Shown here piece by piece: positions 6,499 through 36,323 of a stretch of 64,000 nt of DNA. The stretch comes from Lingula anatina. Lineage: Eukaryota; Animalia; Brachiopoda. Within the stretch, counting starts at the first letter, position 1. Each line of letters starts with the position of its first letter. The position numbers and the translations under genes are program-made. The DNA is taken from NCBI GenBank assembly GCA_051362555.1, contig CM120644.1, forward strand, positions 6,084,954 to 6,148,953. Direction: 5' to 3'. The notes beneath the pieces were generated by a model that was not told the origin of the DNA, ran no database searches, and saw only the letters and a program-made list of their open reading frames with translations.

Positions 6499-9400
6499 CT
6501 ATCTTCCCAACAAGTCGCTGATCTTCCCCGACAGGTCCACCTGTAAATTAATGTATGTTTACACTAATATGACAATGTAGAGTTATAGGCGAACATGATG
6601 GTTTTAATTACACGTCTGATGATACTGGTATGACAATGCCGAGTTAAAGATGAGCACTAACGCATTATGGATAAAATCTCCTCACAACGGTTGCATTGTT
6701 CATAACAAATCTTTACTTATAATATACTGAGGGATCAGGGTTTCTTTTTACGGACATTGTTGAAGCCTAGGTTACATTTGCCATGCAATGGCAGTGCGTT
6801 GCACGTATAGCGTCCGGTAATCCCTTTTCGTTTGGCGTCTGTGTGGAGGGGGGCGGTGACCGTGCGATCTCGTTCCCAGCGGGCAAATCAACATTGAATC
6901 AATGTTGAATCAACGTTGATGGTCAACGTTGAAACTATGTTGATATGACGTTGACTATGAAAGTTGACTCAACGTTGAACCATCAAGGTTGAATCAACCT
7001 TGAGGTATCAATGTTGAATCAACGTTGACGGTCAACGTTGAAACTATGTTGATATTACGTTGACTATGAAAGTTGACTCAACGTTGAACTATCAAGGTTG
7101 AATCAACCTTGAGGTATCAATGTTGAATCAACGTTGACGGTCAACGTTGAAACTATGTTGATATTACGTTGACTATGAAAGTTGAATCAACATTGAACCA
7201 TCAAGGTTGAATCAACCTTGAGGTATCAATGTTGAATCAACGTTGACGGTCAATGTTGAAACTATGTTGATATAACGTTGACTATGAAAGTTGAATCAAT
7301 GTTGAACCATCAAGGTTGAATCAACTTTGAGGTATCAATGTTGAATCAACGTTGACAGTCAACATTGAAACTATGTTGATATGATGTTGACTATGAAAGT
7401 TGAATCAACGTTGAACCATCAAGGTTGAATCAACCTTGAGGTATCAATGTTGAATCAACATTGATACCTCAATGTTGAATCAATGTTGAAATAAAGCTGA
7501 ATTTGAAAATTGAATTAACATTGACATATCAATTAGGCTATCAGGATATTTGATTGAAATTTGCCTGATGGCTGAAGGTGTTCTCCAAGATATCAAGCAT
7601 TTCTTGAAATAAAAAGACTCAGATCTGAAAAGGGGGGGGATTAGGAAAATTACCTACAAAAAAAGGTAATTTCGGAAGAAAAGGGGGGGTCCAGACCCCG
7701 GGACCGGCCCCTGTATCCACCTATTGGTCGTCCAATTTTTTTTAAACTTTCCAGTTTGATGCTCAGTGTTACGGACCAAAACAGCCCGAACAAAAAAAAA
7801 ACACAAACAACAACTAATTTAACTATGAATATAATATACTACAAACAATGAACATACACTACATACACTAACTACATGTAATACTATCATGTTGCATAAA
7901 CTTTAACATTTGTCAAATACAGTTAAATTCTAACAGATTCGTAGACAGTTAAGTTTTGAAGACGCAATGTCACAGTTTTACGAGTCCTTTTCTGTTGAAC
8001 GTTCCTCCTGATAGTGTGGGGTTTTGAAGACGCAATGTCACCGTTTTCCATGTCCTTATCTGTTGAACGATCCTCCTGATAGTGTGGCCTCACAAAGTAC
8101 TGTTAATAAAGTACAGTTTTTGTACTGTAAAAGTGTTGCACACTGTCCACACTCACGTGTTGCATCAGTTCATGTTATCCGGAGTCTCGCACTTAATAAC
8201 AGTCCCGCACTTCATTTACATTATACAAGTATGCAGGCACATACGGTAATTACTCATAAAAATTAAACAACAAATTAGCTTTACTAAAATAATTATAACG
8301 TCACATCAGGTAGTTAAAATTTTAAGAATACTAAAACAAAGGGTCACCAGTTCTCACAGCTAACTTAAATTTCCAGAAAAACAGGCATTTTTGGCTTTTT
8401 CAAGCTTTTTCTTCAACCTTGAGTAAAATTTTGTCAATTTGCCATAAAGTAAGGCTGGTGACCCTTATGTTTTTTTCTTTTTCTTAAAGATAACCTGAAC
8501 ATCAAATCTGGAAAGTTTTAAAAAAAACTGACGACCGCTTTTTTCACAAAATTAATTTTAATGAAAAAGGGGTAAAACAAGCGTTTTTTATGTCTCCTCC
8601 ATCCCAGTGCATCACAAAGTTGCATATTCCCGTTCATAGCAAAAGAGAATGCAACAAAAACTATCGGGTGTTCGTGATTTGGCCAAACAAGGCCGCTTTT
8701 ATTAAATAAACTCACTATCCTAATAATTTTAACAATAATAACAATGTGGCAAATTGTTGCCTGCATTAAATGTTATGGCCTTAGGGATAAAAATTAAATA
8801 TAAAATATGCCTAATAGTCGGCAGATGTACTACGTACAGTGTACATGTACAGCTACTCCCTGCTTGAACTTGTACATAATCTTTCGCTGATATAATATGC
8901 TGTAAACGTGTTGTAACGGTTCGAAATATCGATGAACTGCTGGAAAGGTCTCATCGAAGGAAAAGCCGATGAAATTTTCTGAACTGAAGGTTTAAGTTGA
9001 AAGTCGGAGATAACTTGTAGCTTCAACGTATCGTGCGCGACAACAGAATGAGCGCAAAATGGGTCAGGCAGTGACGTCCCCTGGTATAAGTAGCAACATG
9101 TGCCTCAATTGGGACCACCCCTCCAGGTAGAATTGAGCATGTGCAGAATGCGCATGTGCGTAAATAAGCTCTGGAGATTGTTATCGCCATAAAATATCGT
9201 TTGACTACGCCAAACTTTCCTATGAGGGGTAATTACAACTATGCATACCTCTCTAGTGAGATAATCATTTAAAACTATTATCCAGGTTATGATTAAGGTT
9301 AAAAGTTAAGGTTGACCCAATGTTGAGATCCAATTGATATGTCAACATTGACAAAGGGTTTACAAACACAGGTTGATTCAATGTTGAAATCCTGTTGATC

Positions 9401-12334
9401 TATGAACATTGAAAACTGATTGACAAAGAAAGGTAAAATCAATGTTGAGACCCTGTTGATCTATCAACATTGACAATTGGTTGACAAGAAAAGGTTGATT
9501 CAATGTTGAAATCCTGTTGATCTATCAACATTGAAAATTGATTGACAAAGAAAGGTTAAATCAATGTTGAGACCCTGTTGATCTATCAACATTGACAATT
9601 GTTTGACAAGAAAAGGTTGATTCAATGTTGAGATCTTGTTGATCTATCAATATTGATGGATCAACATCATCTCAACCTATCCTCAATGTTGAATCAACGT
9701 TGAGTGCCCGCTGGGTTCAAGGTATTGCGGTTTCACGGCTCCCTAAATCTTTTGACAAAGTTTTTAAGTGCCATATCCATAAACCGATGCAATATCGTAG
9801 GTGACATTGAACAGTTCAAATACGGGCATTACTCGGTGGACTTGAAGTGATGGTTATGATTGCTTAACCCGTTGTTGGTATCATTCGCTACCTCTTTGGT
9901 GGTTTTATAAGGCATGGCAATAGCGAAAATGATAAAATCTGAGTATATTTCACTTGTATGAATTTGAGGTCCTGCGTTCCCTTATTCTGACCACTTTGAT
10001 GTCAAAAACACGGAGGCGGGGGGGGGGGGGGGGGGGGGGGGGTAACCGACCTTATCAGTCTTCAAGGAAGTTGCACGGAGGGAGTTCGGCATCTACACTA
10101 GGTGCCTTGGCAAATGTCATCTAGGCTTTAGCCGATCTCGATTGCAAATTAAGATTTTTACAGGTTATTATGTTTAAGTGTTAAAACATCTCACATGTCA
10201 GTGTAAAACCTCATAACGTTATCTCATTGAAATGCAGTGTGTTTCAGATATAAAATAGGGTTCTTACCACATTTGGATTGATTGTCTGGAATGTTTCCAA
10301 GTGTGTTCAATAGAAATGCAAACATATAAGTTAGAAGGAAAAAGATTAAATAATAATCATTTGATCATGTAAAACCGACTGTCACCAAGCCATGAATAAT
10401 TATGTTAAATGCTTACATTTATAGTTAAGGACTAGCACATTAAAAAGAGTATCTCCTGTGGTCTTATTAAAAAAGAGAGAAATCATTTATTGCAACTTAA
10501 CCATTATGCTTCTTATTTGAAAATATAGTTTCTTACCGGAATCGGATCAAGACAAAGAATCTGGAATGTTTTTGAAATAAAATTAATGTTTGGTGAAAAA
10601 CAAATATTCTTGTTTGCCCTAAATGTGCATGCATATTCATTATAACTTAACACATTGATTTACAAAAATCACAATCAAAAATGTTTGTATTATGATCTAA
10701 AAAACAAAACAAATATGGTTAAACCTATTTGATCTAGGAATATGTTATTAGTTACGTTAAACCTTAAACAAATAGACTAGTTTCACCATTACACGGCATA
10801 TATGCACATGCCCACAGTTGTAAAAATTAAAAAATAAAATATATACATATATATATATATATTTTTCAAACTTACCGGATATAGTAAACATTCAAGCTGA
10901 AGGGGAAAAGGCCACGTTGTATATATATATATATAACTTTTAATTTTTGTGGTTTCATTGCATCTATATTGAACTATTTTCTCTTACAAATTTGTACTAG
11001 TAAAAAAAATTGAGGATAAAATAAGTGTCAACCATTTGAAATATCATATGAGTATCATAATAATAATTACAAATATTGACAATTATAATTTCTCTTTATG
11101 TAAACTCCTTAGCCAATCCCGAGTGCAAATCTATTTTTTACAGATAAGAATGATTCAGAGTTTAAGCCCCTGACACTTCAGTAAAATACCTAAAATATCA
11201 TCTCTTTGAAATGCAATTTGTTTCAGTTACGAAAATACGCGTTCTTACCTTATTTGGCCATGGCTTGGTTGTCTGAAATGTTCCAAGTGTTTTGGATACA
11301 TATAGTAATTCATACGTTTAAGTTAGAAGACAAAAAGATTTTACTAAAAATTTCTTTAATCATGTAAACCGAATATCATCAAACTATCATAAAAATGTGC
11401 ACATTTAGATACAAGTTCTAAAGGCCAACTTCATTTAATATCCCAGTGTTATCCCGTGCGAATTAACATAAAGAAAATCATACTCCGGCCTGTTATTTAT
11501 TGCAATAGTTATCAGTATACCTCTTATTCTGAAATATAGCTTCTTACCGGCAGTGGCCAATCACATGGAATCTGGAATGTTTTTCATTTAAAATCAATGC
11601 TTTGGAGAAAACAAATATTCTTTTTTACCCTAAATGTACATACAGATTGGCAAAAATCATAATAAAAAAGCTCAAAATGAATATGGTTAAAATCATTTGA
11701 TCTAGGAATATGTTATCAGTAATGAAAATAAGGTCTGAGTAAGAATCAAAACGAATATGGTTAAGAGTATTTGATCTGGGAATATATTATCGATTTATTT
11801 TTATCAATAATGTTAAACCCGAACAACAGACTTTAGTTTTCACCACTATACGGTATATGCACATGCCCTCAGTAAGGGTTTTCTATTCGGCTGTATCATA
11901 TTGCAAAAGCAGAGAAGAGCATCTATTTAAAAAAAAACTTACCCATGGGTATCTTGAACATGGAAGCTGAAAAGGGGAAAAGGCGAAGTTATATTTATTT
12001 ATATATTTGATGTTTTTTCTTGCTGCGGTGTTATTTTCTTCGATAGATTTATTCTGTCAATAAAACTTGAGGAACACGTGCTAAAGCTTTAAAACATCTT
12101 ATGAATATAGATATAGAAATAAAAAAAAGATTACTGCTATTTAAATCAATTCCTTTGCCGCTTTCGAGTGCAAATGTAGTTTTTTATAGATGACTTTGTT
12201 TCAGTGTTCGAGCACCTGTATAGCACCTCAAATGTTATCCCTCTGAAAAGCAGTTTGCTTCAGATATGAAAATATAGGTTCTTACCTCATTTGGGACGAT
12301 TGTCTGGATTATTAAAGTTTCCGTGTGTTTTGAA

Positions 12335-12365
<31 letters not shown>

Positions 12366-12957
12366 TTAGAACAAAAAAGGTTAAAGTAATTATTTGATCA
12401 TTTAAACCGATTCTCAACAAGCCATATAAATATGTTAAATCCACGCATTTATAGTAAACGGTTAGTACATTCTAAAAACAAACGTGCTACAAAAATTTTA
12501 AAAAGAGAGAAATTGTTTGTTGCAAATTTATCATTCTGCTTCGGATTAGAAAATATAGTTTCTTACCGAAAATGGAATACAGGACCCCTGGAATGTTTTA
12601 AAAATGAAGTTAATTCGTTGGGGAAAAGAAAATATTCTTCTTTACCTCGAATGTACATACATATACATTATAAGTTTTCAGGCAGATTGACAAAATGTTT
12701 TATTAAAAAAGAATGATGGTCTCATAAGCAAAACGAATATGGTTAGACTATTTGATCGAGGGATATGTCAAAAGTAACGTTAAGCCTTAAGCAAACAGAT
12801 AATAGTTTTAACCAATAAACTTTATTTATACTTGTCCTCAATAAGGCTTTTCTTACCATGCATGACTCGGTTATCCTTTATTGCAAAAATAGTGAAGGGA
12901 ATCTATTATTTCTTAAACTTACCCCTAAGCATGGCGACGGCTGAAGGAAAAAGGCAA

Positions 12958-13035
<78 letters not shown>

Positions 13036-15607
13036 GAAGAAAAACGATTAAAAAACAATCATATGATTATGCAAACCGATTATCGCCAAGTCACAATTAA
13101 AAACTTTGTTAAATGCATACATTTATAGTAAACAATTAGTAAACACTTTAAAAATGAATGAATAAAAAAAACAATATGTATGCCGACCAATAATACACAA
13201 AAAACATAGGGAGCATTCAGATAGACACATCGTGTTTGTTGGATCGGTCCAATTCTGTGGGGCTCTCACTAACTGCAATCGACTACACTAAATGACACGT
13301 CTCCTTGGGTAGTTAAGGAGCAACTAATTTTCTTGTCAGCTCTGCTGAACTACCCTCCAGCTGCTCTTGGGAGGCGTGTCAGACAATAAACCTAATTCTA
13401 CTGATTGCACTTAGCGAAAATCCCCGCATGGTTACACCTATCCGATGACGTGACAGACCCTACGCTGTGTCTCTCTGAATGGGGTCACATAGTTCCTTAC
13501 ATCTACAGGTAGGATAGCCCGTTCGTCAGTGCCGCGAAGTACGGAAAGGAGGCGGGAACCTGAAATCAAATAATTGTAGAAAACTATTACTATTTTACAA
13601 CAAATATATGTGATGTAGATGTCAGTGTTTCGATGAACAAGTATTCAACTCTCACAATATGTTGAAAATATCGGCCATGGTTACTATTATAAAAAAAATA
13701 ATAACTACAGTATTTATTTGTTTCTTGACGAGAATAGAAGAGTCTCGTTAATGATAGTTACTCAAGAGTCTAAGCAATAAATAAATAGATCGAAAATTAA
13801 AACAGTAACCAACAACTTATCTTGCAAACTCAAACAAACTGTTACTGTTTTCGAACCCAAACATTTACAGAAATCATATACATCACATAAATTACATGTA
13901 TTTGAGTTTCAGCAGTGTATTTCACACACGCTTTTCACAAGCGTAATTATGTTCACACGTCTTCTACGTTGACACCCTTTCCAATTTTTTATAAAATGAA
14001 TTTCTTTTCATTGTTTTAGATTGTATTTGCGGTGCAATTTTAGCTGGGGACGTAACTCTCAAGAGCTGATTGCCACTATACCATAGTGAACATACGTTAT
14101 TAACGTAAGGTTGTGAATATAAAATATAAAATTGTGAATGCCATGTTGTTAAATGCATACAATGTAGGATTGCAAAGTCATTCCAAGTGCATGGATCGCT
14201 TATTGTTGAACTTATCTGAGGACAATAATAACTTTTAAAACATAAAATTATAGACAAATGGCCTCGCCTTCGCCGCCACCTTTCTAACATCGGTAGCCAG
14301 CCATCTTGACACAGTTTGTAAAAAGAGCGAATCACGGCACGAGGGTCCTGCGATATCTGGAAGTCGAGTTAATGGAATAAATGGTGTATCTGGATAACCT
14401 CCACTTATGCGCAGGTTTTGATCTTTGGCCTTTTACCAAAAGTGTGTCAGAGTCAAGTGATTTCTAGACCAGCAAACACGACACGTTCGGATCACGTGGC
14501 TAACACGTTGCTACCACATTATAACGTCATAGCAACGTGCCAGCCACGTGATCCGAACGTGACGTACTTGCTGTTCAGGAACGGATATTAAATGTTGGTA
14601 AATCTTGAGGAAAATGCCGTTTACCCCGGGATAATTCGTTTAGTATGGTTTTTGGCTCAAGAAATTCTCCTTTATGCACCATTAACTGTGAAATGCTTCT
14701 ATTCATACTCTAAAACAAAATTCAAAGGAAAGGTGCACATGGTATGTCGTGAGGCCTGGCTTAGAGATGCGCTTATCTGCAAAGTAAAGCGGGTAGGATA
14801 GGCCTTAAAGTCATGTCGGTATAGCCTTCTGGTATCAGCCTAACCTCTGATAACAGGTCAATTTTCAGATTTGCAATTCTCATCGACGTTTATGGCAGTT
14901 TTTTAAGAGAATAGCCGGAGGGGATGGACAAAAAATATACAGAACGATAAAACATAACATTATATGAAGTGTGTAGTTGCATGATATAAAAAAAAAGAAA
15001 TTGTTCCCTAACAATTTTGCCCCTTATTTTCTGGCACTTTTCTGGCGTTTATATAATCATGGATTAGTTATTTATTCATTTCCAGGATTATATAAACGTG
15101 GCAAAATAATACATAGTCAGACATCGCAATTGTAGTAATCAAAACTGCTTAATTCCCCAAAACTGTAAATAATGAAATTCAAACAAAGTTTTTTTGCGCA
15201 AGAATTCAAAATTATAATACAACGGAACTGGAAACTTTGTGCTTTTTGAAAGATTGAACAAAATGGTCGTCACCACAACGATTTAAGTAAGGGAAGGATG
15301 TTTTTATTTTCTTTTCCTATTATTTGCATACTATGACTATTTAACTTTCTTACCTCAGAATTTCTTGTTAAAACCAACCATATTAAGTCCAAACATTTTT
15401 TCAAATCCAAAACGAAAGCAAAACAGTACAGATTTAAAAAAAATCACAAAGGGTCAATTAAGCACATATGTTAGCATACTGCCTTGGTTACTTTTTACTT
15501 ACTTCTGGTAAAGGAAAAAAAAGAAAAAACTCACCGCGTGTTTCCTTGGCCCCGTTCGCTATGTCACAAACAAAGCACACAACGACGCACAGCAAGAACG
15601 CTCTCAT
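6499..15607 (-). CDS. Micro-exon gene A: secreted Cys/Pro-rich prepropeptide, 12 exons, 121 aa
   Basis: Exons (all GT-AG): 15607-15535 MRAFLLCVVVCFVCDIANGAKETR; 13559-13501 GSRLLSVLRGTDERAILPVD; 12940-12923 PSPCLG; 12587-12567 GSCIPFS; 12303-12286 TIVPNE; 11966-11943 LPCSRYPW; 11571-11548 IPCDWPLP; 11272-11249 TTKPWPNK; 10896-10876 LECLLYP; 10560-10537 ILCLDPIP; 10285-10268 TINPNV; 6540-6499 VDLSGKISDLLGR*. Phases join without a stop; hydrophobic N-terminus; AATAAA on the minus strand at 6451-6456. The last exon is the least certain (3.7 kb intron). Confidence 0.8.
6890..7490. repeat. Five tandem 109-bp units (left subterminal array)
   Basis: GAAACTATGT recurs at 6931, 7040, 7149, 7258 and 7367. 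Confidence 0.92.
9370..9660. repeat. About 61-bp tandem units (right subterminal array)
   Basis: GTTGATCTAT recurs five times at roughly 60-61 bp spacing. Confidence 0.85.
10180..12960. repeat. Three diverged tandem units of about 1 kb, each carrying three micro-exons of gene A
   Basis: Shared landmarks AATATAG(T/C)TTCTTACC (10522, 11533, 12552 approx.), AATATGGTTA..ATTTGATC, and CTGAAG/AAAAGGC repeat at about 1 kb period. Confidence 0.88.
12962..13032. repeat. (TA)n(TG)n microsatellite
   Basis: Direct reading. Confidence 0.95.
14469..14573. mobile_element. Small hairpin MITE in intron 1 of gene A
   Basis: CACGTTCGGATCACGTGGCT...AGCCACGTGATCCGAACGTG inverted repeat with CCAGCA-like ends. 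Confidence 0.7.
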
Positions 15608-16050
15608 CCTGCTGCAGGCTCTTCCTCAAAAGTATGAACGTCAGAACTGCAACGAGCACCTGGGAGCCCAGAGTTGATTTAAATAGTCACATAAAATACA
15701 TGCCCACGCAATATAAACGGGAAGACCGACCCCTCGTCACACGTACGTGTACGTGCCATTATGCAGGTTTGCCCGAAAACTGGTTTAAAGGAACTTAAAC
15801 ATCTGGGCGCGTTTATCTAAGGAGATGCGACAATGCAGAGCAATAATAACGTAAAAAACCATACTGTGTTGCACACTGGAAAAGTTCTGATAGCTATACA
15901 GCTATATGATAAGCAAAATAGAAAACTGAGCCACGAAAAATACGAGTATTTTATTAGTAGACGGAAATACAAAAGGTGATCTTATAAGTTTTAGACCCTT
16001 TGTAATGAATAAGGTACCATCTCTACACCTTCGTGTAATATTTCATCTTA

Positions 16051-16352
16051 AGGCCTAGTCACAATGTAGGCGATCTGTCGGGGATAAGTTTTGGCCGGGG
16101 GTCGTCGTAGAAAATAAAGAATCCTTGAACAATCCTAGCAATAATCCTAATAAAAGTGAAGCAGTCACATTGTCTGAGATTTTTTCAAGGATTTTGACCC
16201 GGTTTTGTCGAAAAATCGTGGGATTAGCCTCCGATCGCCTCCGATTGCATCGGAGGCGATCGGAGACGATTTCTGAGAGCGTCTTTTCTTGTAATTTTTT
16301 CCCCCTGGGTATATGTGGGGGAAAAGGAGGGTTTTCTGACCTCGGTCATCTG

Positions 16353-16399
<47 letters not shown>

Positions 16400-16879
16400 A
16401 TTATTATATATATACACGGCGATTTACTACGATTCCACCGTACGATTCGTCGGAGACGATCACATAAAGCGTACGAATCGTCGCAGGGCGCCTCCGATTC
16501 AGTCGGAGGGCGCCGGAGACTACTCGCAGACATTGAATCTCAACCTGATTTTCCAATCCCACACAGAATCTTGCGACTAGTCTCAGATTATTCGGAGGAC
16601 GCCTCCGATTAATCGAAGGGCATCGTAGGTCATCGGAGATTGTGTCTGGGATGCCCAAAATGGGTGAAAAATCTTGCGAGCAATCTTAAAATTTTAAGTT
16701 CAAAGTTGGGGACCGCGACGGGTGTGGCGATGTCTAAAAAATCTGCAACAACCCGCAGGCGTCCGGAGAGCGCCTCCGACGGGTGCAAAATCGTGAGATC
16801 TGTCTCAAGATTTTGTTCAAATTTCCCGGGTTTTACTCATCCCCGACGCATCGCAACTGATTTGTGACTGCATGGGCCT
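16051..16879. mobile_element. PIF/Harbinger-type MITE upstream of micro-exon gene A
   Basis: Imperfect TIR AGGCCTAGTCACAA / TTGTGACTGCATGGGCCT flanked by TTA; CpG-rich interior with repeated TCGGAG/CTCCGA motifs and a (TA)n tract. Confidence 0.68.
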
Positions 16880-17640
16880 TTAATATTCAGGTTAACAGTC
16901 CGAGCCGCTGTTATTGTTTTGTTTTGCTGAGTGCTGGGGGTACCTTTGTTTTGGTACAAATATGCATGTTCCTTTCAAAGATCAGCAACGTCGATTTATT
17001 TCGACAAAGTTAATTGAATTTTTGTTGTTTATGCATGTACGTTCACCTATAAGTGGCAAATCGTTTCTTACTTCATACATGTATTTTCTGGAGAGATATA
17101 TTAAAAAAGACTGTTCCGTTTTAAATTCAGCATCATTGGGTTATTTCATTTGCCTTGTATATATTTGACACAATTGACCCAAAAGTGGCAAACCTATCTT
17201 AAGTTAAGTTAAGGAGTTATTAGCCGTTAATTACAAAGTTTCATAAAAAATATGGCGTTATTTTCCTTTATCGACGCCAAAATGTGTGAACTAGACTTTT
17301 ACGAAGAATTGCTTGCAAGGTTTTAGAGCACTAATTTGAGAAACCGGGTTTTTTTCAATTTTTACCCCAAACTCGCAATTATGACGTCACCCATATGATG
17401 GCATGCGTATATATATATATTTTTAATTTAGTAACTGAACATTGAATGTATGCACGGCAGAAAATATGGAGTTTTTTGGCAAACGCTTATATTATCTTTA
17501 AGTCGGTCACTGTAAATGATGCAAAATTGGATGTTTTTTCAATAAATATTGGATGTTGCTGTATTATTTCAAGATAGAACAGTGGAAGGGCTCTTTCCCA
17601 TATTTATGTCAATGTATTAAGCTCCGCTAGCGTTTCGTGA

Positions 17641-17713
17641 GGTTCAATAGTGTAGTGACCATCACGCTCGTCTCACACGCGAGAGGTCCTGGGTTCGAAC
17701 CCCAGTTGAACCA
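17641..17713 (+). tRNA. tRNA-Val(CAC) or tRNA-Val-derived copy
   Basis: Acceptor stem GGTTCAA/TTGAACC, anticodon arm CTCGT-CTCACAC-GCGAG, T arm CTGGG-TTCGAAC-CCCAG, T-run terminator just downstream; D-loop lacks the invariant GG. Confidence 0.75.
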
Positions 17714-18959
17714 GCTATATGTTTTTTTTACATGAAGTTTTAGGACAGGTCTGAATGTTCAGGAAATAACACAAAGAAAGTGTGCATAGATATTTTCGTC
17801 TAAATGAGCCTCGACTTATTTTAACCTTTTAAAAAGGTAGAATTGTTAAAGGCCGGACCTACTCTACATTTCTCGCGAGGCCAGCAGTATGGCGCGTGAA
17901 AATGTATCTACTACTGTACGTGCGGCGGGCTTTTCTAACTGCCTTCACAAAAGCATGTATAAAGTTTTAGCCACAATATTTAGAGAAAAAAGAAATTGCA
18001 CCAGTACTGTAAATGTTAACAGTCGCGTTTAAGGTCAGGGCGAAAGAATCTTACAGAGCAATTTTTTCTCATGCTGTGTGCTTTTAATTTCAGAAAAAAT
18101 GAAAATTTCACAAAATGCATATCGCCATTTTCTGTTTTCAATAATAATTGTTGCAAGTCAGTTTACGTTGATCATATCAAATATGTTTTTTTTTTCTTTT
18201 TTTTTTTGTGCTATCGAATTAATATATCAGTACAGTATTACCATGCATCCAGCACAACAGTTCTCTAAACCCGTTACACTTGGAACGGTGAGGTGACTTA
18301 CGTGTACACTCGTTCAATTTCTTTAAATAAATCCATATCAAATTAAATTTGTTCAGTTGGCATTGGCAGATTCATAGTGATAAAATCAACCTCTCGTTTT
18401 TCCTGAAGCCTTATAACAACATATAAAAATGGTACCGGTTAATAAAGGAACTCTGCATGCCTTTGAAAACCCCTCAGATTCAAATCTATATCCTTGAAAG
18501 TTTATTATATTTCCCAATTTATACCTTAACGACGATAAAAGACCCCTTAAATTATGTGAAATAAACGTTTATCTGAAGCGTACCTAGTGTCGCTACTGTC
18601 TTTTCAGCTTTTATAGCAGGTCGCAACGTCTGTATTACAGTGATACAGGACCGTGATACAAACATCACCCCTTTTTCCTGTCTGAAAATGAGGCCATGAA
18701 GATGAAAATCGCGAAGGCTATGTCTTTCTACTGGACTGGCCAGTCATTTAAAAACTAAATCAATGAAATTAAACGTGGAATAAGACACCAAATACAAAGG
18801 CAGGGACGGGTTGAGGCTGAGTCGTAATTGGTATAAAATTTCCCTTTAACACTGGAAAATTCATCATTGCGGATAAATTCCACGGAGAGTTCCTTTACAG
18901 ATAATTTCGCCAGATATACTTTGCAAAATGGATGGCTCGCGTGTATGCTATCCTCATAG

Positions 18960-21900
18960 CTAAACCAGTGCCTTTTCGCACACATAGCCCCCCACGTTGC
19001 CATTGCAGCTGTAATCATCAAACTCGTAGTCAACAAAATCCCGCCTTCCAATCCAGAGGACCATGCAAGGACCGTTCCCGTCAGGCTGATAGTCTCCGGG
19101 CACGCCCGCCGCCTTCGTCCAGCCATCATAAGCCACTTGTTGCCCTGTAGGTACCCAGAAAAACTGGAGCTTGCGGGCCTCCCTAGAGTTCACTGGCGCC
19201 CCAGTGCGTGTAGTGACGGGGTTAATCGAAAGACGCCGACCCCCCACGTACCATCCAATGAACCTGTTTGGTGGGGTGATGGCTGGAATGAAATTAAAGT
19301 ATTTATTTAGAAGAATGGATTTTATCCAGGGTGAATTTTTGAAAGGTTTAATAACAAAATAAGTTACACCCAAATGCCGATATAAAATCAAATTTAAAAA
19401 AAGATCACATCTGATACATTGACAAATTCATGGTTTTGCTAAATTGGGAAGCAATGTTCAAAATTATTTTCTGTGGCTTTCCACGTTCAAAACTGTAGGC
19501 GCAGACCTGGGTAATTTTACTATTTAGGACCCTGTTTTGGGAAATGCCTTAAGCAGGCAACACAAAACAGGGATGCGTGCCCGCTGTGACCCCCAGATCG
19601 GCCATTGCCCAGGGCTCCGTATCTCGAAAGGTTCGCTATGTTGCTCACGTGCGCAAGCGTCCCGATTCCATAACCGATTCTATTTCGAGATACGGGGCCA
19701 TGGAATCGAGACACTTTAGCACGTGCGCAAGCGTCTCGATTCCATGGCCCCGTATCTCGAAATAGAATCGGTTATGGAATGGAGACACTTGCGCACATGC
19801 GCAACATTGCGAACCTTTCGAGATACGGAGCCCAAATCCATTATACCCCGTTCACACTACGCTCAGTTATCCGGATAAATTGCGAATTAGGTCACAATTC
19901 GAATAAATGCAGTAGTGTGAACGCAAGAGGATTTTTGTAATGCGCATTTTCAAAATCCTGCAAGCGAGGTGGATTTCTAAGCGCGATCCGGATAACTTAC
20001 CGGAATCGACACCTTTACAGATCTTACTGCGCATGTGTGCAGATAAGTGCGGATATCTATAAACGCTTGTTTATTACTTTAGCGATTGCACCAAACGTAT
20101 TTGGAGGTCACCACTCACTACAACATGAGGAAACAAACTTATTTTGCCACCTTGTACTTCTCAAGAATGCTGGAATGTCTTTTGAGTTGCATTTGTCGTC
20201 ACAAATTTTTGTTGGTATTTTAAGATTTCCTGTGCGGCGCATGCGCGAGTGTTCAAAACAGGAAGTTAAACCTGAAATTTTCAACATGGGATTCGGATTC
20301 GCTTAGCGAGTGTGAACGCAATACCGAATCGGATTCCTTATGAAAAATCCGAATTATAGAAATGCGCATTTTGGCAACTGTAGTGTGAATGGGGTATTAG
20401 TTACATAAGTTAATGATGAAATGAAGACAAAAAATTTATTCGCATTTTAGTTTCGGAACGAGCTCTTATTGTTTTGAGAATTTTGTTCTTTGTCGAGGAG
20501 AGGAGTTTGCCAGTCATATACAGTAAAAATATTTATTTACTTACGTCTTAGGTTAGTCTTGATAAACTCGTGCTCTTCGCTGGTCTCTATGGAAACGAGG
20601 TCAGCGGACGCATTTTGGCAAATTGCCCTGGACAACGCCCAAGATGGCGACCTCCCGGACACGGTAATAAACGAATAACAGGAGTTACCGAAAACACCAA
20701 ACCCAGGTGGGCAACCTAAGCAAGAAAACGATAAGTGGATTCTAGCATAAGTGTTTCATTTTGGAACAAAACGTACATCTCCAGTCTTAATTATCAGTCA
20801 AAATATATCTGTAATAAATGTATGCTTAAACCATTTCGTGGAAATATTTTTGTTTGGCAAATACTAACTTCGTCCTCTACGGGTATCATAAAAGATCCCA
20901 TCGTAATGGTATACAGCAATAAATAGATGAAAAAAACACCTTGTAAAATGTCACGATGTCCGTTAGAAGCCTCTATAGTTTGGCAAAATTCCAATATGAG
21001 GCAAGAAACATTGTTAAGACACAAAATGCACTTTCGACCATTAGAGCAGAATTTTTGGAACTTCATACTTTTCTCTTTATCGCCAAGGTTTACAGCATCC
21101 AAAACCGTTGAATAAATCGCCATCTAGAATCCCATATCGCGGTCTAAATGCCCATTTTTATAGGCACGATTTAAGTTAACCAGTAAATATCTTAATTTCA
21201 CCAGATGCAGGCTTTCATTTGGTATAGATGTGTGAAAATAGATACTCACAAGATTGAGAATTGGTGCAGGATCGGGTCTGGGTCCCCGCCCCCTGGCATC
21301 CGGGCCCATTATTACACTGTCTTTCTCTTGTGGCAACCCCTGTCCCGCAAGTCTTTGAGCAGGCACTCCAATCCCCCCACGGGCCCCAAAACGGCCTGGG
21401 TCTGCAGTCAGCTGGGTTCCATACGCGCAGGACGCACGGGTTTGAGGAGTCCGGATACGCGGCGGATTCTCCGTACTTTTCTGGCACCTTTGTGCCGGGT
21501 GCGCATGCGTGGAACGTGGGTCGAAGATAACTGGTGCCGTGATATTCACATTGGTAGAATGCGCACGCGTTGCTGTCGTCACGGAGATACTGGTTGCTGA
21601 TGCGGTTTGGGTCGCATTGTCCGACTGAAATAAAGATTCCCCACTGTCAAAATTGAGGCAAGTTTTTGTGCATTAAAATAACAAATTAGCTTTCAGCTAT
21701 TTTCAAAATATATATTCCCTTTTCTTTTGGAAACCATAGCTAAAAGTCTACAAACATAAACGAATCTGGAAGTTGGCTCTTTTTATATTCCGAATACTAT
21801 ATACGGATTGAGTACTTAATTATGAATGTGAGAGACAGGGAGAGAGAGAGAATGAGAGAGATGAAACGTCGAAGAAAAACTTTGAAATACAAAAAAAAAA

Positions 21901-21999
21901 AAAAAAAAAATTCAAAGAGACAGAGAGAGTCTTACCTGGATCAGACAAAATACGACAAAATAGGCCAATCAATACGGTAAATGCGAAGATCGCTGTCAT
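18960..21999 (-). CDS. Secreted multidomain lectin: signal peptide + chitin-binding type-2-like Cys domain + TSP1 + C-type lectin (QPD), 4 exons, about 310 aa
   Basis: Exons 21999-21936 ([21 protein letters not shown]), 21624-21250 ([22 protein letters not shown], then [25 protein letters not shown]), 20715-20545 ([34 protein letters not shown]), 19282-18960 ([24 protein letters not shown]). All introns phase 1 GT-AG, frame open. Confidence 0.88.
19612..19833. mobile_element. Palindromic MITE in lectin intron 3
   Basis: GGGCTCCGTATCTCGAAAGGTTCGC...GCGAACCTTTCGAGATACGGAGCCC, near-complete fold-back. Confidence 0.85.
19844..20396. mobile_element. PIF/Harbinger-type MITE in lectin intron 3
   Basis: TIR TACCCCGTTCACACTAC / GTAGTGTGAATGGGGTA with TTA TSD. 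Confidence 0.8.
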
Positions 22000-22039
22000 C
22001 TCAACGGTGCAATCGAATACAGATATTCTCTCAACGTTC

Positions 22040-22046
22040 TTTTATA
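22040..22046 (-). promoter_or_regulatory. Candidate TATA box of the lectin gene
   Basis: TATAAAA on the minus strand about 40 nt upstream of the ATG at 21999. Confidence 0.4.
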
Positions 22047-23497
22047 CGCTTCCCATCACATCCAAATGGCTTTTGATGGTAAATCAATAAAACAATCAAA
22101 CCATAAAATATACGAAAACACCTTCATTCGATCACTTGAGAACTGTTTACAAGCCACTTCGTCCATCTATATTTTCTAAAGTGACGTAAAATGGGCTTGT
22201 CTCAAAAAGAGGAGAAAGAAATAAAATCTATTTTCAGCTATACCGGTACGTGACACTCTTGGACCTGATGTCGTGTACGGGAAAGTCCATGTAATACAGT
22301 TCCTGGTTCCCATTGATTTGTACAAGACCCACTTACGTTCAAGATAGCCCTAACCTGTATGAATTTGGAGAGCGTTACACAGACTCCCAGTTTCGTCATA
22401 TAAGACATATCATTCAATTTTTTTAAATCCTATTGATTAAATTTCAAGCAGGGTCAGTTTCATATAAGATCTTTTGTCGGAGCGAAAGACCCTGCTTTAA
22501 ACATGTACATTGTAGACTTAACATTTGACCCAAGATGTATCAGTAGTTGTCGCTTTATGTGTCACGAAGTGTCAGTTTTATAATAAGAAAGCAATTGTTT
22601 TAGACCGATACTCACAAGTTATCTGTTACAAGTGTAGAGAACATGAACACTTTTATCGTGAACTCTAAGTAATGGGGATAGAAAGATTATAGTCAAAGCG
22701 TTAAGACCAACGTTGAGTGTTAAGTTTTTTTCTCTTTAACTGGCTCATCGTCTCTGTAAAGCTGACAATTGGAGTAAGCTAGGAAGCTTTCCTTCCACCC
22801 CCCCCCCCCCCACCCCCCAACAAGCTAGAGGGCCTCTTGACTCGATTTGGTGACATCGCGTTACCCCATACCTTGTTGTTTATCTCTAGTTAATGGCTTT
22901 ATGACAGAAATAGTTAAACAATAAGCTAAACTACTCTACTAGTCATAGCAGCTATCTAAACAACTTCCGGTTGCCAACGTTGATCAATCAGAAATAGATA
23001 CTACCTGTAAGTTAAAATATCGACACTCACGATCGCTGTGCGTAACTGCTATTTTGGTTGCTTATTTACTACTTATTTCAGTCACAACTATTAGAGTTTA
23101 TGGCGTTGTTGTTTTCTTCGTTTGTTTTAAAGCTCCAGGTTGCGAGCGTTTTAAAACTGTGCCAAGGGTGTTGGCAATTGGAGGGGGCGATGGATTATTT
23201 TGGTAATATTAATTAATGATATTTATCTTTAATAAAAAAGGCAAAAAAAAATTTTTCTTACCCGGTGAAATTAGGATTTTCCTGAGGACATAAAACTGTA
23301 TTTTCAGAAGTTATTATTTTTTTCTTCTTATTTTATTTGTTTATTTTTTAATTCTTTTAATTAATTAATAAATTTATTTATTTATATTTTTTATTTATTT
23401 ATTTTTTTTTTTTGCATTGCTTCCTTTGGCAAATATGAAATTGTAGACAGAAGGGATTTTACTGTGATTTTAATATGTAGGACACATGAATGAAGTA

Positions 23498-23498
<1 letters not shown>

Positions 23499-23565
<67 letters not shown>
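23499..23565. repeat. (TTA)n microsatellite upstream of gene B
   Basis: Direct reading. Confidence 0.95.
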
Positions 23566-23934
23566 GCTATTTTCTCTTTACATAAACTTTATACAATGAC
23601 TGCTGAGTACCGCTGAAACTAAAAGAAGGCATATGGTTGACTCCTCCCCTCCACCCCCCCCACCCCCACCCCCCCATTCTTCCCGTGTATTAGCTCACGT
23701 ATTAGAAGAGACTTGGCCTTTAGACTTTATCAGCTGGGCGTCATGTAAGGTTAGAAACAAGGACGTGAGTGATCTAAAACTGTGGCATAAATAAATTCAA
23801 GGCCAGATAACGTGCTCTTCATCGAGTTTAAGTGTAAAGTCGTGCCAAGCAATAATTCGTGATAAGGAAGAAATTAAGTTTTTTATTAAGGAAATTCAAA
23901 TTTACGGATAGGACTTTTACGCTTCACCTTACTT

Positions 23935-24425
23935 ATGAATATCAAAATAACTTGGATTTTCATCATTTTGCTGGTTTATGCATCAGCGGTGTTTGTTGGG
24001 AGCAATGTGATCCGTGAACGGAAACCTTCAACTTGTGAGTGCAATTTTTTTAAAGAATAAGTAACAAATACCCCTGTTTCAATATACAAGTGATAAGCTC
24101 TTACTTCAGGTGGGCTTTATTGATAATCCATCAAACTGAGCTGGGCAGTTAGCCTTATAAACATTATTTTTGTTATAAATATTTGATCCAAAAACTATAG
24201 TCTCGCGGGGAGATTTCATTTGGTTTTGACGGCTTAATAAATGGAAAAAACTGATCACCGTGTTACTGTATGTTATTGAAACCCCAATGAGTCACACTGT
24301 AGACGTTAGCAGGGAAATTCTGTCTGATCCAAGATTGCCGGTTGCATATTTATATATATACATAAAATAATAAACGAGGTCAACCTTATCACACACACTC
24401 ACACACATACACACACACACACACT

Positions 24426-24456
<31 letters not shown>

Positions 24457-25754
24457 TAGGAATGTATAAGACTGAGAAATGGACAACCCCCAAACTAAAG
24501 AGGCACGTGAACCACTGTGACCCCCATTTGGTCATTGTGGACATATCCAAATATTGGCTGCTGAAATCTCAGATAACACTCGAACCAAATGTCTAATTTC
24601 AGTGCTCACCCTTGGGCAAAAGCAATGGAAGATTCGATTTATGCATTTATTCCAGCTTCGAAATAAACGCGAGGTAAGCGATTTTTCGTTTTTGTTGTTT
24701 ACGTTTATACATACGTATGTTTGCTTGTGTCAATGTACATTCTTTTATCATTTAAAAATCCATTACAAATATCCCGGTAGCAATTATTGAATTAAATCGC
24801 ATTAAGGTTATTGTTTCGTCTTTTCAAAATAAGAATACCATTTTAATTTGAAATAACTGCCACCCAATTACGATTGTAACAGGTTGGCAATTGAAGGTTG
24901 TTTTCCTTTTTCAGACGAGTCCAAATCTATGGACGTTCCCCCCAAAGGTAAGTACACCTTAGCTCATTTGAAAGAAGCGCCTTATAAGACAATGTTTGGA
25001 CAACAATGTGATAACTTCCTCCGCCAAAAAGTTGTACTTTGTCAGTTTGTCCGTAAGCAACGTTATGCATTATCATAAGAGTAGCAATCCCAACAGTTGG
25101 TGAGTTGGATTCCAACCTGAAACCTTTGTGAGAAACTTCAAAACAGAAGCTCGTACATAACAATGGACTTAGAAACAGTCACTAATAGGAAGTCCATCGG
25201 AACCTGAAAATTGTTTAAGTACGTGGAAATTGGATTTAGAAAAATAAGTAAATTTTAGTCCTTTGCATGATGATTTTATGGCATGAGAGGGCATGTAGAG
25301 TGGGTTAAATGTATGAAAGGATTTCTGATAACTTTATTTATTCATTTTGTATTGATTTATTTTTATTTATCAGTATTCAATTCAATTCATTTCTGTACTG
25401 GTGCATGATTAATCATGACCTTTTGCAATATAATATAATAACAGCAAGACAATTGGTGCATTACCATTCTCTTTATTCACCTTCTTTGCATTCACCTTCT
25501 ATTCTTTGCAGATCACAATTCGAACTTTTCCACCGATTCCAAAGGTACAATGTAGGTTGTAGACGTTGTGGAAGATGCTTAAAGCCAATGTGGTTCTATA
25601 ACATCATGATACATGGCGATAAAAAATCTTAAATCAAAGTATAAAATATAGAATGCCATACTGTACGTCACAGAATGGTTGATCAGTTTCCCATTTATAT
25701 TTCCAGGTGACCATAAAGCCATGGACCATACGTTCTATAGTAAGTTGTGCTGTG

Positions 25755-25800
<46 letters not shown>

Positions 25801-28293
25801 TTGTTGTTGGTGGTGGTGGTGGTGGTGGTGGTGGTGTTTTTTTTTTTCCTTTTTTGATTCAATAATTTGATGAGGTAAAATCCTCGAGTCCTTGCAACCA
25901 TTCGTATGTGAACTGGTAAAAACGTGCAGAACACCGGTAGCTTTCGCATGTAGATCCATATGCTGAGCATTCCATGCATTTATAATCACACAAGAGCATT
26001 TAAGTTATGTAACATTTGTGAAATGGACAACATTTTTTATTTATTTCAGAAACCCATAAAACCCTGGACGGTGCCACCAAAAGTAAGTTATACCGCAAAA
26101 AAAGTCGCACGTTAAACGACCACTCGTACCTTGTGATTCAGTTTGTCATTTTGATAAACACTTTTGTACAGTCACATATATTGTCATCTTTAAATTTTCA
26201 GTTGTAGTTTGCAGAAACAAAATCGTCATTCATCACTGTTTTTTAAGTGGAGCTATTGTCGTGTACGTTTCGCAAAACTTTTCGCATTTTAAGAGCTTAA
26301 TTTCTTTCTTACCATTAGGTGACCTTTACTTTTCCACCTGAGGTAAGACATTATACATATAAAAGTATGTACACTAATAATATATCATATATTTCTTGAA
26401 AAAAAACGTAACGATACTTATTTATTATTAACAATAATGAATACTGGTTGCTGATGTCCCGAATATGAATAGATGAATGTTCTATATTATATATAACAGT
26501 ATACGATTGCTCACGATGTGACAAAGGTATATTGCCCTTAATACATGTATGTTACAACGTACAGTGTATATGAACGTGTATCAAAATTAGCTATCACGTT
26601 CAATATGTCTGTATGTATGTTCAGTGCATGCAGGAATATTGCCCAGTTTACTTGCATGCACTTTTGTTTCCATCTAATTATAGCATAAATAAATGAACTG
26701 CATATAAGATATATGAATAGGACTCTTTGCAACATGAGAGGGGGTGGATGTCTTTGGTAAACCGCCGGATGAGAGTGACTAGGGCAGAAGAAATTATCGC
26801 AAGGACTGGCGCAATTTGTGTTTTCTTATAGCCAATACTTATCCTTTACAACTCTAATGGACAAGAAAGATTAAGATGGTTAATAACATCAGGACACGTG
26901 GTAATAAAAAACTCTTACATGAAGTATAAAATACAGAATACCAAACGGTCACAGAACGGTTGATGAAACATGGTGATGGACCAGTTTCCTATTTATGTTT
27001 CTAGGTGACCATCAAGCCATGGACCATTCGTTCCATTGTGAGTTTTTTTTAAATATATATCTGATAATTCCGTGTGTGTGTGTTTGTGTCTGATTTAACT
27101 GGATAACTTTTGTTGGGTTACCACATTCTTATAAGAACATAATCAGTTAGATACTTGGTGCATATATTAATTCAGATATGTATCTTAACTCAATACAACC
27201 ATATTTTAATTAACTATAGAAAACATTGTGCTATTGGCTTGTACTATTACTATTTTTCTTGTCGTTGTTGTTTGTTGATGTTGTTTTGGTTCTTGTTCCT
27301 ACTGCTGTTGATTTCTACTCCTTTTCCGTTTTCTCAATAAATTAATGAGGCAAAAAACATTCCTCCTCGCTTGTGTATGCGAACATTCTTGTGTATGGAC
27401 TGGTAAAATCATGCAGAGTATGCATCGATAGCTTTCACATTTAAGTCTATATGCTTGGCATTCCATCCAGTTAATCACACATGGAAGTTTAAGAAATGTA
27501 ATTTTTGTGAAATGGACAACATTTCTTTATTTCAGAAACCTATTAAACCCTGGACGGTGCCACCAAAAGTAAGTCATACAGCAAAGAAAAACACACTTTA
27601 AACGAGCACTCGTTTCCAGTGATTCAATTTGATTCAATTTTTGGTAAACCGTTTTTTTTCAGTCACACATCTTATCATGTTTAAATTTGTATAAAGTTGT
27701 AGTTGTATAAACAAAATCGCAATTCATCAGTCTGGCATTTTAAAAACTTAATTTCTCTTTTACCATTAGGTGACCTTTACATTTCCACCTAAGGTAAGAC
27801 ATTATACATATAAATGTCTGTACACTAGCTGATATATTTCATGACAAAAAAAAACGTACCGATACTTATATATTTTTAACAATAATGAATACTGTTGCCG
27901 TGACAGGTGCCTTTAGAGACAGTCTATTATATTTGTGTCTTTATATTTGTGAACAATGGACACATTTGTATACTTTGTACATAAAACTACGCAGAAGTGG
28001 AGAAGCACCAGAAGTGTCGTTTATTTACTTTTGATAGTTTACTTCTAGAGAACAATCGGACTGCTTCCAACTGTAAGTAAATTCATCTTAAAAGAATACA
28101 TTTGGACCAGATTGTTTCAAATTCATATACTTAAACAAATACAATGTAAACGTTGTAATCACACCAATGCTTGTCATATTGAAATTTCAGGTAAATCTAA
28201 TCCAATCTAGATACCGATTCTGTTTGCATTCATTTACTCCCTTCTCTCCCATTGTCTATGAGATAGCTTTTGTAAACCGTTTTATAACGTGTG

Positions 28294-28324
<31 letters not shown>

Positions 28325-28475
28325 AAACAATGCCAATGCAGTGATGAACTGATGCGTGCCAATCCGGTACATTTATCCCATTAACTCATCAAACATTTGA
28401 TTTTCATTATTCTTACAGATCGTTCTGCCAACAGCCGCACCTTTACCAACATTCCCTCCGGATTTGATTGGTTAA
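23935..28475 (+). CDS. Micro-exon gene B: secreted Pro/Thr/Lys/Trp-rich cationic prepropeptide, 11 exons, 154 aa
   Basis: Exons (GT-AG): 23935-24034 MNIKITWIFIILLVYASAVFVGSNVIRERKPST; 24603-24673 LLTLGQKQWKIRFMHLFQLRNKRE; 24915-24947 TSPNLWTFPPK; 25707-25739 VTIKPWTIRSI; 26050-26082 KPIKPWTVPPK; 26319-26342 VTFTFPPE; 27005-27037 VTIKPWTIRSI; 27536-27568 KPIKPWTVPPK; 27770-27793 VTFTFPPK; 28049-28072 RTIGLLPT; 28419-28475 IVLPTAAPLPTFPPDLIG*. Signal peptide, RNKR furin-type site, AATAAA at 28588-28593. The exon-2 acceptor is ambiguous (in-frame alternative at 24573). Confidence 0.82.
25640..27900. repeat. Two tandem units (about 25640-26450 and 26920-27900), each carrying three micro-exons of gene B
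   Basis: Shared AAGTATAAAATA.AGAAT.CCA, TTTGTGAAATGGACAACATTT, GGTAAGACATTATACAT and AACAATAATGAATACTG. Confidence 0.9.
25757..25836. repeat. Compound (AAT)n(TTG)n(GGT)n microsatellite in a gene B intron
   Basis: Direct reading. Confidence 0.95.
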
Positions 28476-36138: not shown

Positions 36139-36323
36139 TAATATAGTGTGCATGTTATCACTGTTGACACGATAGTTTATCTATACATTATACATGGCCA
36201 TTGCCACCTTTTGAGGTCAGTTACCGCGTATCACACTACAAAGGGGACTGGGTGTGCTATATAGCTCACATGTGATTGTTCCACTATTGACTAAAAGACT
36301 TTCCAATGCCATGATGTGACAAT

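What the first reader, a model, noticed from the sequence alone, without database searches (positions are those of the whole stretch)
6499..28475. Genes A and B share one architecture: a possible undescribed micro-exon peptide family
Seen in both: exon 1 is a signal peptide ending in phase 1; exon 2 is a pro-region converting phase 1 to 0 with an Arg near its end (TDER, RNKR); then only phase-0 micro-exons expanded as three-exon modules; a shared T-x-K-P-W motif (TTKPWP versus TIKPWT, both with AAGCCATGG); last exon ending DLLGR* or DLIG*. They are divergently oriented about 8.3 kb apart. Inference: ancient paralogues of a modular system in which peptide repertoire is built by duplicating exon-intron cassettes and possibly by combinatorial skipping.
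Basis: partly seen in the sequence, partly recalled or inferred. Interest (0 to 1): 0.88.

Follow-up and report, generated by a model that had tools for sequence, protein, structure and literature searches.

The report
Two micro-exon secreted genes, brachiopod
A lamp-shell (Lingula) genome holds two neighbouring genes, each with nine tiny in-frame exons that multiplied by copying three-exon blocks; they likely make small secreted proline-rich proteins for surface defence, may share a distant ancestor, and nothing yet shows that the exons are mixed and matched.

Summary
The exon models hold. Gene B (12 exons, 165 aa) matches Lingula anatina RefSeq XP_013402169.1 at 151 of 165 residues without gaps. 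Gene A (12 exons, 121 aa) has no database record and no RNA reads in 4 runs, but its triplicated cassette kept 9 of 9 CAG/GTAAG sites, the frame and all six cysteines while introns drifted 21-26%, so it is very likely real. Cassette duplication is shown in each gene separately; a remnant of a fourth A cassette survives. Paralogy is weak: no shared DNA, N-termini unrelated (p=0.23), T-x-K-P-W within chance (p=0.09); only the D-L-[LI]-G end is unusual (p about 0.005), and A's last exon is unconfirmed. A third gene (TSP1 plus C-type lectin) sits between them. No family member turned up among 1.84 billion representatives. No skipping evidence: one RefSeq isoform, all exons included. The products differ: B cationic, cysteine-free, repeats under purifying selection; A acidic, three variable disulfide loops. 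Best reading: a schistosome-MEG-like layout in a free-living brachiopod, likely making secreted defence or mucus proteins.

The parts
15535..15607 (-). Gene A exon 1 (coding part): predicted signal peptide, ends in phase 1
   Evidence: hydropathy up to 2.9; TATA-like element 78 nt upstream
13501..13559 (-). Gene A exon 2: putative pro-region, phase 1 to 0, single Arg six residues from the end
13032..13154 (-). Remnant of a fourth gene A cassette (intron piece that precedes c-type exons), its exon lost next to a (CA)n(TA)n run
   Evidence: blastn 77% over 124 nt, E 2e-19, to 10446-10330; flank z 11.5
12286..12940 (-). Gene A module 1: exons 12940-12923, 12587-12567, 12303-12286 (18, 21, 18 nt); one Cys in each of the first two
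11249..11966 (-). Gene A module 2: exons 11966-11943, 11571-11548, 11272-11249 (24, 24, 24 nt); holds the T-x-K-P-W motif
10268..10896 (-). Gene A module 3: exons 10896-10876, 10560-10537, 10285-10268 (21, 24, 18 nt)
6499..6540 (-). Gene A predicted last exon, ends Gly-Arg-stop (amidation-type end); AATAAA 43 nt behind the stop; not RNA-tested
18960..21999 (-). Intervening gene C (exons 21999-21936, 21624-21250, 20715-20545, 19282-18960; 310 aa): signal peptide, Cys-rich domain, TSP1, C-type lectin
   Evidence: P0001 and P0003, Lingula anatina RefSeq XP_013402167.1 and XP_013402677.1; Pfam TSP_1 and Lectin_C
23935..24034 (+). Gene B exon 1 (coding part): predicted signal peptide, phase 1
   Evidence: found P0002
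24603..24673 (+). Gene B exon 2: putative pro-region ending in an R-x-K-R convertase-type site, phase 1 to 0
   Evidence: collinear with P0002
24915..25544 (+). Gene B exons 3 and 4 (24915-24947, 25512-25544; 33 nt each), resembling the module exons but without detectable intron homology
25707..26342 (+). Gene B module 1: exons 25707-25739, 26050-26082, 26319-26342 (33, 33, 24 nt)
27005..27793 (+). Gene B module 2: exons 27005-27037, 27536-27568, 27770-27793 (33, 33, 24 nt)
28049..28072 (+). Gene B exon 11 (24 nt, phase 0)
28419..28475 (+). Gene B last exon, ends Gly-stop (amidation-type end); AATAAA 113 nt behind the stop
   Evidence: matches the end of P0002

Best explanation
A and B are two Lingula genes whose phase-0 micro-exons multiplied by tandem copying of three-exon blocks, and they likely each make one small secreted, convertase-trimmed, C-terminally amidated proline-rich protein that would act in defence at a body surface or in mucus. 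Shown: exon layout, cassette duplication inside each gene, a lost cassette in A, purifying selection on B's repeats, conservation of frame, splice sites and cysteines in A. Inferred: secretion, cleavage after the exon-2 Arg, amidation at the final Gly, and function. B would be a 12-kDa unstructured polycation (pI about 11, 24% Pro, 17% Thr, 5 Trp) that binds anionic microbial or mucus surfaces through repeated K-P-W-T units. A would be a 9-kDa acidic chain carrying three Cys-Cys loops of 4, 7 and 6 residues, each closed across an exon junction, whose contents change freely. Phase 0 mainly lets the gene gain or lose whole cassettes over evolution; all exons are probably included in the main mRNA. 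A common ancestor of A and B is about an even bet and is not needed for this reading.
For: Models open and canonical. B equals RefSeq P0002 in length with 14 of 165 differences. Homologous introns between modules. B modules: pN 0.015 against pS 0.32, Fisher p=0.00015. A modules: 9 of 9 CAG and GTAAG kept, six Cys kept, exon lengths differ only by multiples of 3, whereas 13 of 83 intron gaps are multiples of 3; pN 0.33-0.40 about equal to pS 0.35-0.43. Charge and composition. Mature B without predicted structure, pLDDT under 50 over most of residues 57-161 (single sequence, weak). Gly or Gly-Arg ends lead to amidation in molluscan and other marine defence peptides (PMC5577615; PMC10608444). Best Atlas neighbour is an apidaecin cluster at 0.80, a lead only. 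B is absent from a list of 54 Lingula shell proteins. B differs from its RefSeq counterpart more (14 of 165) than C does from the copy on the same scaffold (10 of 310, counted).
Against: No functional, tissue or proteomic data at all. No reads on A's exons in 4 of 4 runs laid, though C, a RefSeq gene, was also silent there, so the tissues may be wrong. No protein record for A. pN about equal to pS in A fits relaxed constraint as well as diversification. B has about 4% Arg in the mature part, unlike myticalins (over 10%), and at 108 residues is longer than they are. The K-P-W-T unit also occurs in a mussel adhesive protein. No SignalP or cleavage predictor was available.
Confidence: 0.45

Rival explanations
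1. B (and perhaps A) is a structural or adhesive mucus protein, working like green-mussel foot protein 1: Lys and Trp in Pro-rich repeats give wet adhesion or cohesion, for example in burrow mucus or the pedicle end.
For: Four K-P-W-T units in B; Pvfp-1 has the same four residues in its repeats (PMC6508894) and uses hydroxytryptophan in place of DOPA (PMC4275877). Strong purifying selection on repeats. RefSeq names B 'adhesive plaque matrix protein', an automatic label.
Against: No mussel protein among the 5 hits at E up to 0.001. B lacks the W-x-x-W spacing of the Pvfp-1 repeats and has no Tyr in the window's mature part. An amidation-type end and a pro-region are more typical of bioactive peptides (general knowledge). 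A has no such repeats.
Confidence: 0.25
2. One reading: A and B are paralogues of a wider family that makes a repertoire of isoforms by skipping phase-0 exons (512 in-frame combinations each), as schistosome MEGs do.
For: All nine internal exons of both genes are frame-neutral. Same phase pattern, neighbours, and a shared C-terminal motif rarely met by chance (2 of 400 strict, 7 of 400 loose shuffles). Several A acceptors score low in a crude model, as skipped exons might. Automatic annotation misses such genes (A has no record), so relatives could be hidden.
Against: One RefSeq isoform with every exon; no second signal-peptide relative among 3 candidates; no relative among 1.84 billion representatives; no other micro-exon cluster in the 64-kb window. 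Half of A's 512 combinations would leave an odd cysteine. Donors are near consensus at 17 of 18 micro-exons.
Confidence: 0.12
3. A and B are unrelated; the shared layout is convergence on the usual rules for secreted repeat proteins (phase-1 signal exon, symmetric exons, Gly for amidation), and their functions differ. This rival concerns ancestry and is compatible with the best explanation.
For: No DNA similarity (best blastn E 0.15); 1 of 121 A-B flank pairs above z 4, maximum 4.6, against 10-32 for true module pairs; N-termini p=0.23; T-x-K-P-W p=0.094; opposite charge and Cys content; an unrelated gene between them.
Against: The D-L-[LI] before the Gly is not explained by amidation alone (p about 0.002-0.005, chosen after the fact); global alignment p=0.017; two rare layouts within 22 kb.
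Confidence: 0.45
4. Gene A is a recently silenced gene or pseudogene.
For: No reads on its exons in 4 runs, no protein record, pN about equal to pS, satellites in the last intron.
Against: No stop or frameshift, 72 of 72 splice-site bases and six Cys codons kept across three copies that are 21-26% apart in introns; C is equally silent in those runs.
Confidence: 0.1

Closest known systems
Micro-exon genes (MEGs) of schistosomes (PMC4350168, passages; bioRxiv 10.1101/2023.06.21.545858, passages)
   Same: Signal peptide followed by a run of very small symmetric exons (52% of A's and 54% of B's coding sequence); missed by automatic annotation; Pro-rich, fast-changing secreted products.
   Different: Free-living brachiopod, whereas MEGs were said to appear restricted to flatworms; no sequence hit to MEG proteins; micro-exons here arose by three-exon cassette copying; alternative splicing, central to MEGs, is not shown.
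Myticalins, Pro-rich cationic peptides of Mytilus (PMC5577615, passages)
   Same: Secreted, Pro-rich, pI over 11 (B), convertase site, Gly or Gly-Arg amidation end.
   Different: Myticalin genes have three exons with the mature peptide (23-42 aa, over 10% Arg) in one exon and an anionic C-terminal extension; B has 12 exons, an N-terminal pro-region, a 108-residue Lys-rich product; A is acidic with six Cys.
Pvfp-1, foot protein 1 of Perna viridis (PMC6508894, passages; PMC4275877, passages)
   Same: K-P-W-T within Pro-rich repeats, little or no Tyr.
   Different: No significant sequence hit; no W-x-x-W in B; gene structure not compared.
Insect defence peptides expanded by exon duplication (nasonins, nahymenoptaecin-2; PMC2853521, passages) and apidaecin precursors (Atlas lead)
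   Same: Repeat number raised by exon duplication; nasonin repeats also lack processing signals between units.
   Different: There one exon codes one whole domain; here each unit is split over three micro-exons. Apidaecin units are released by internal cleavage sites (recalled), which A and B lack.
Caseins (PMC6726744, passages)
   Same: Secreted proteins from highly fragmented genes with frequent exon skipping.
   Different: Vertebrate family, no sequence relation; signal exon and phosphorylation clusters differ (recalled); B is not in the Lingula shell proteome list.

Membership tests
Schistosome-type MEG | N-terminal signal peptide | tested here: met
   Hydrophobic N-termini, Kyte-Doolittle 2.5-2.9, helix in model; no SignalP available
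Schistosome-type MEG | Most coding sequence in very small symmetric exons | tested here: met
   192 of 366 nt (A) and 270 of 498 nt (B) in phase-0 exons of 18-33 nt
Schistosome-type MEG | Pool of isoforms by alternative splicing | tested here: inconclusive
Schistosome-type MEG | Sequence relation to a MEG family; flatworm host | tested here: not met
   5 hits for B: itself and 4 unrelated long proteins; host is a brachiopod; full-length A could not be searched
Myticalins | Mature peptide with pI over 11, Pro-rich | tested here: met
   B residues 57-164 pI 11.2, Pro 24%; not met by A (pI 4.3)
Myticalins | Three-exon gene, Lys-Arg site followed by anionic C-terminal extension, over 10% Arg | tested here: not met
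   12 exons, no anionic extension, about 4% Arg against PMC5577615
Mussel foot protein 1 (Pvfp-1 type) | Tandem Trp/Lys/Pro repeats with W-x-x-W and detectable homology | tested here: not met
   K-P-W-T shared but no W-x-x-W in B and no hit
Mussel foot protein 1 (Pvfp-1 type) | Hydroxylated or mannosylated Trp, presence in adhesive | not testable with these tools
   Needs proteomics
One A+B paralogue family | Significant similarity between A and B | tested here: inconclusive
   Whole p=0.036, mature p=0.19, global p=0.017; N-termini p=0.23, motif p=0.094; C-terminal motif p about 0.005
One A+B paralogue family | Further members or intermediates | tested here: inconclusive
   None in protein collections or the window; genome not held

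The most novel reading that the evidence does not exclude
Lingula has an unannotated family of MEG-type secreted defence genes, the first in a free-living lophotrochozoan, in which three-exon cassettes are born and lost and phase-0 exons are skipped, so that variable disulfide loops (A) and cationic Trp-Pro repeats (B) are assembled combinatorially on one shared precursor with a D-L-x-amide end.
Probability: 0.12. Interest if true: 0.75.

Novelty: new variant of a known kind. Interest (0 to 1): 0.45.

Why it matters
A layout tied in the literature read here to parasitic flatworms appears twice within 22 kb in a free-living brachiopod, and one of the two genes has no database record, which suggests that annotation misses such genes in lophotrochozoans. 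Gene A gives a clean case of a disulfide loop whose two cysteines lie in different micro-exons and whose contents vary between cassettes. If skipping and further members were shown, it would be a splice-based diversification system in an invertebrate without adaptive immunity; if not, it is two orphan secreted proteins with a well-documented cassette history.

Tried and rejected
Genome-wide scan: no genome held. Run search: no RNA holder listed; 9 raw RNA runs offered by species label. Reads laid on 9900-22300 in 4 of the 9 runs, 6-25% of each read: depth 0 over A exons 4-11, at most 0.05 in the exon 1 bin, none of 11 listed joints fits an A or C intron; reads lie on repeats. A's exon 1 frame found no candidate of 80 aa or more; shorter records were not searched. 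Full-length A could not be sent to the profile, Atlas or fold tools because no record of it exists. Pfam: nothing useful for B. PDB sequences: only signal-peptide matches, E 0.19 or worse. Atlas: top 0.80 whole protein, no usable hit for the mature part, all TM under 0.4. Metagenome scan: 81 pattern matches, 0 confirmed. The 4 non-self HMMER hits are long unrelated proteins with no K-P-W, dropped as repeat or chance matches. Positive selection in A: exons differ more than introns (Fisher p 0.03-0.04) but pS is as high as pN, so I do not claim it. Shell-matrix role: accession absent from the 54-row list. Alternative A donors at 15503, 15354 and 12857 considered; not needed for the frame and untested. 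Resemblance of A's loops to Bowman-Birk loops or contryphans is recalled, untested and not used.
Full report
Organism and setting. The window is animal DNA (GC about 36%). Proteins encoded in it match Lingula anatina RefSeq records at 91-100%, so it comes from L. anatina or a very close Lingula.

The observation. Both genes can be built as described. Gene A (minus strand, 15607 to 6499) has 12 coding exons and 121 residues; gene B (plus strand, 23935 to 28475) has 12 exons and 165 residues. Every junction is AG..GT, exon 1 ends in phase 1, exon 2 goes from 1 to 0, and exons 3-11 are phase 0. A strict micro-exon scan finds 31 candidates in the window against a mean of 11.6 in 30 shuffles, and they cluster only in A and B. 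The start codons are 8,328 bp apart, but a third gene lies between them on the minus strand: four exons, 310 residues, with TSP1 and C-type lectin domains.

Is B real? Yes. A search with its first exon returned 1 protein among 3 candidates, XP_013402169.1, also 165 residues long and differing at 14 positions without a gap. Its cluster has one member and no isoform label. The two full modules (exons 5-7 and 8-10) differ at 7 synonymous and 1 non-synonymous codon: pN 0.015, pS 0.32, p=0.00015.

Is A real? Very likely, but only by sequence. No protein of 80 residues or more shares three words with its first exon. In 4 of the 9 RNA runs offered, read to 6-25%, depth was zero over exons 4-11 and at most 0.05 in the exon 1 bin; the reads near exons 2 and 3 carry differences at intron positions and look like repeats; no listed joint fits A. 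Gene C, which RefSeq annotates, was almost as silent, so these samples say little. The positive evidence is the triplicated cassette: its introns are 21-26% apart, yet all 9 exons keep CAG and GTAAG, all six Cys codons are kept, there is no stop, and exon lengths differ only by multiples of three, whereas 13 of 83 intron gaps do. Between cassettes pN (0.33-0.40) is close to pS (0.35-0.43), so apart from Cys, some Pro and the frame the residues change freely; I do not claim positive selection. The last exon is the weak point: it follows a 3.7-kb intron with two satellite arrays, and its acceptor ranks 16 of 228 in a crude score, although it has AATAAA 43 nt behind the stop.

Cassette history. 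Intron homology links module to module within A (z up to 28) and within B (z up to 32). A 123-nt piece at 13154-13032 is homologous to the intron that precedes the third exon of each A module, and it ends at a (CA)n(TA)n run that leads straight into the first module. This is the remnant of a fourth cassette; loss by slippage or unequal exchange at the microsatellite is my inference.

Are A and B paralogues? Protein alignment gives 20.8 bits; shuffle p is 0.036 for the whole chains, 0.19 for the mature parts and 0.017 for a global alignment. Signal and pro-regions, usually the best-kept part of variable peptide families (PMC5577615), do not align (p=0.23). The T-x-K-P-W match has p=0.094, and only 1 of A's 3 homologous exons has it; modules 2 and 3 have the closest introns, which would make the motif a later gain in module 2 (weak). 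Of 121 A-B flank pairs one exceeds z 4. The one unusual feature is the end: a phase-0 exon finishing D-L-[LI]-G-[RK]?-stop arises in 2 of 400 shuffles of the 4.8 kb behind A's exon 11 (7 of 400 for a looser motif), and in real sequence the strict motif occurs only at A and B among 26 blocks. It was picked after the fact and the Gly may be convergent. I put common ancestry at about one half.

Family and skipping. phmmer of B against 1.84 billion representatives gave 5 hits: B itself and four long unrelated proteins. Pfam, PDB, the ESM Atlas and a metagenome scan added nothing firm. Full-length A could not be searched. Each gene allows 512 in-frame exon combinations, but half of A's would leave an unpaired cysteine, the only public B product holds every exon, and no RNA test reached B. 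Modules are not separated by dibasic sites; the one internal Lys-Arg in the window's B (exon 10/11 junction) is absent from the RefSeq allele. So each gene more likely makes one repeat protein than a set of peptides.

Likely function. After signal and pro-region removal (inferred), B is 108 residues, pI 11.2, net charge about +12, 24% Pro, 17% Thr, five Trp, no Cys, and has no predicted fold. A is about 81 residues, pI 4.3, with three Cys pairs enclosing 4, 7 and 6 residues. Both end in Gly or Gly-Arg, the signal for amidation in marine defence peptides. I favour surface defence (0.45): small size, processing sites, amidation, fast change. An adhesive or mucus role is the main rival (0.25): B shares K-P-W-T with the mussel protein Pvfp-1. 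A shell role is less likely: B is not among 54 listed shell proteins.

Known systems. The layout works like schistosome MEGs, which PMC4350168 describes as signal peptide plus very small symmetric exons with alternative splicing and as apparently restricted to flatworms. Two layout features are met, splicing variety is untested, and homology is not met, so these are not filed as MEGs. Myticalins and Pvfp-1 fail their membership tests. An earlier AI note of this scan reports a MEG-like layout in a fungus (unchecked), which lowers the surprise of finding one outside flatworms.

Literature seen. Passages only: PMC4350168, bioRxiv 10.1101/2023.06.21.545858 (47), PMC5577615, PMC2853521, PMC4275877, PMC6508894, PMC7971044, PMC10608444, PMC6726744, PMC4595640 (67, supplement searched in 38), PMC13425148 (41, supplement searched in 37, part 1 of 132 read in 42). 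Supplement search only: PMC13121700 (66, 0 hits in 3 files). Not held: PMC2749108, PMC2909574, PMC3482130. Not found in print by these searches: 'Lingula anatina' with 'micro-exon', 0 papers; B's accessions, 0 papers; 'microexon' in 0 of 15 listed of 489 papers; 'Lingula anatina' with 'antimicrobial peptide', 20 of 22 listed, none on these genes by title. Subscription papers, including a Lingula immune-gene survey that I recall but could not read, and expression tables not held as text may bear on the function and on novelty.

Verdict. Real and tidy gene anatomy, one gene unannotated, cassette duplication shown; family status and skipping unproven. New variant of a known kind; interest 0.45.

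Noticed in passing
The window is closer to P0003, yet no B record from that contig was found: uncollapsed haplotype, missed annotation or presence/absence variation. Its N-terminal Cys-rich domain has no Pfam hit.
   Followed up: partly
window 30273, 36324, 41123, 52961 (+): Four tandem single-exon TRIM-NHL (RING, B-box, NHL) copies; only 36315-38144 is one open frame, the others are broken into several frames.
   Followed up: partly
window 6898-7524 and 9308-9656: Two satellite arrays (109 bp x 5.7, 61 bp x 5.7) rich in TCAACGTTGA-like palindromes inside A's last intron.
   Followed up: no
window 19612-19833 and 14462-14581: Perfectly abutting inverted repeats (111-nt and 60-nt arms), MITE-like; RNA reads from other copies pile up there.
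   Followed up: no
window 17641-17713 (+): tRNA-Val(CAC) between A and C.
   Followed up: no
window 6468-6418 and 6159-6110 (-): A 51-nt piece of A's putative 3' UTR, including the AATAAA, is duplicated 309 nt further on (88%).
   Followed up: no
window 11943-11571 junction (-): The exon 6/7 junction of A creates one W-x-x-C, the C-mannosylation consensus quoted in the abstract of PMC8433626 (listing only).
   Followed up: no
window 4163-4921, 43178-43672, 61887-63386: Fragments that look like non-LTR retrotransposon reverse transcriptase (by eye); HYR exon at 39959-40348 and Sushi exon at 60825-61121.
   Followed up: no
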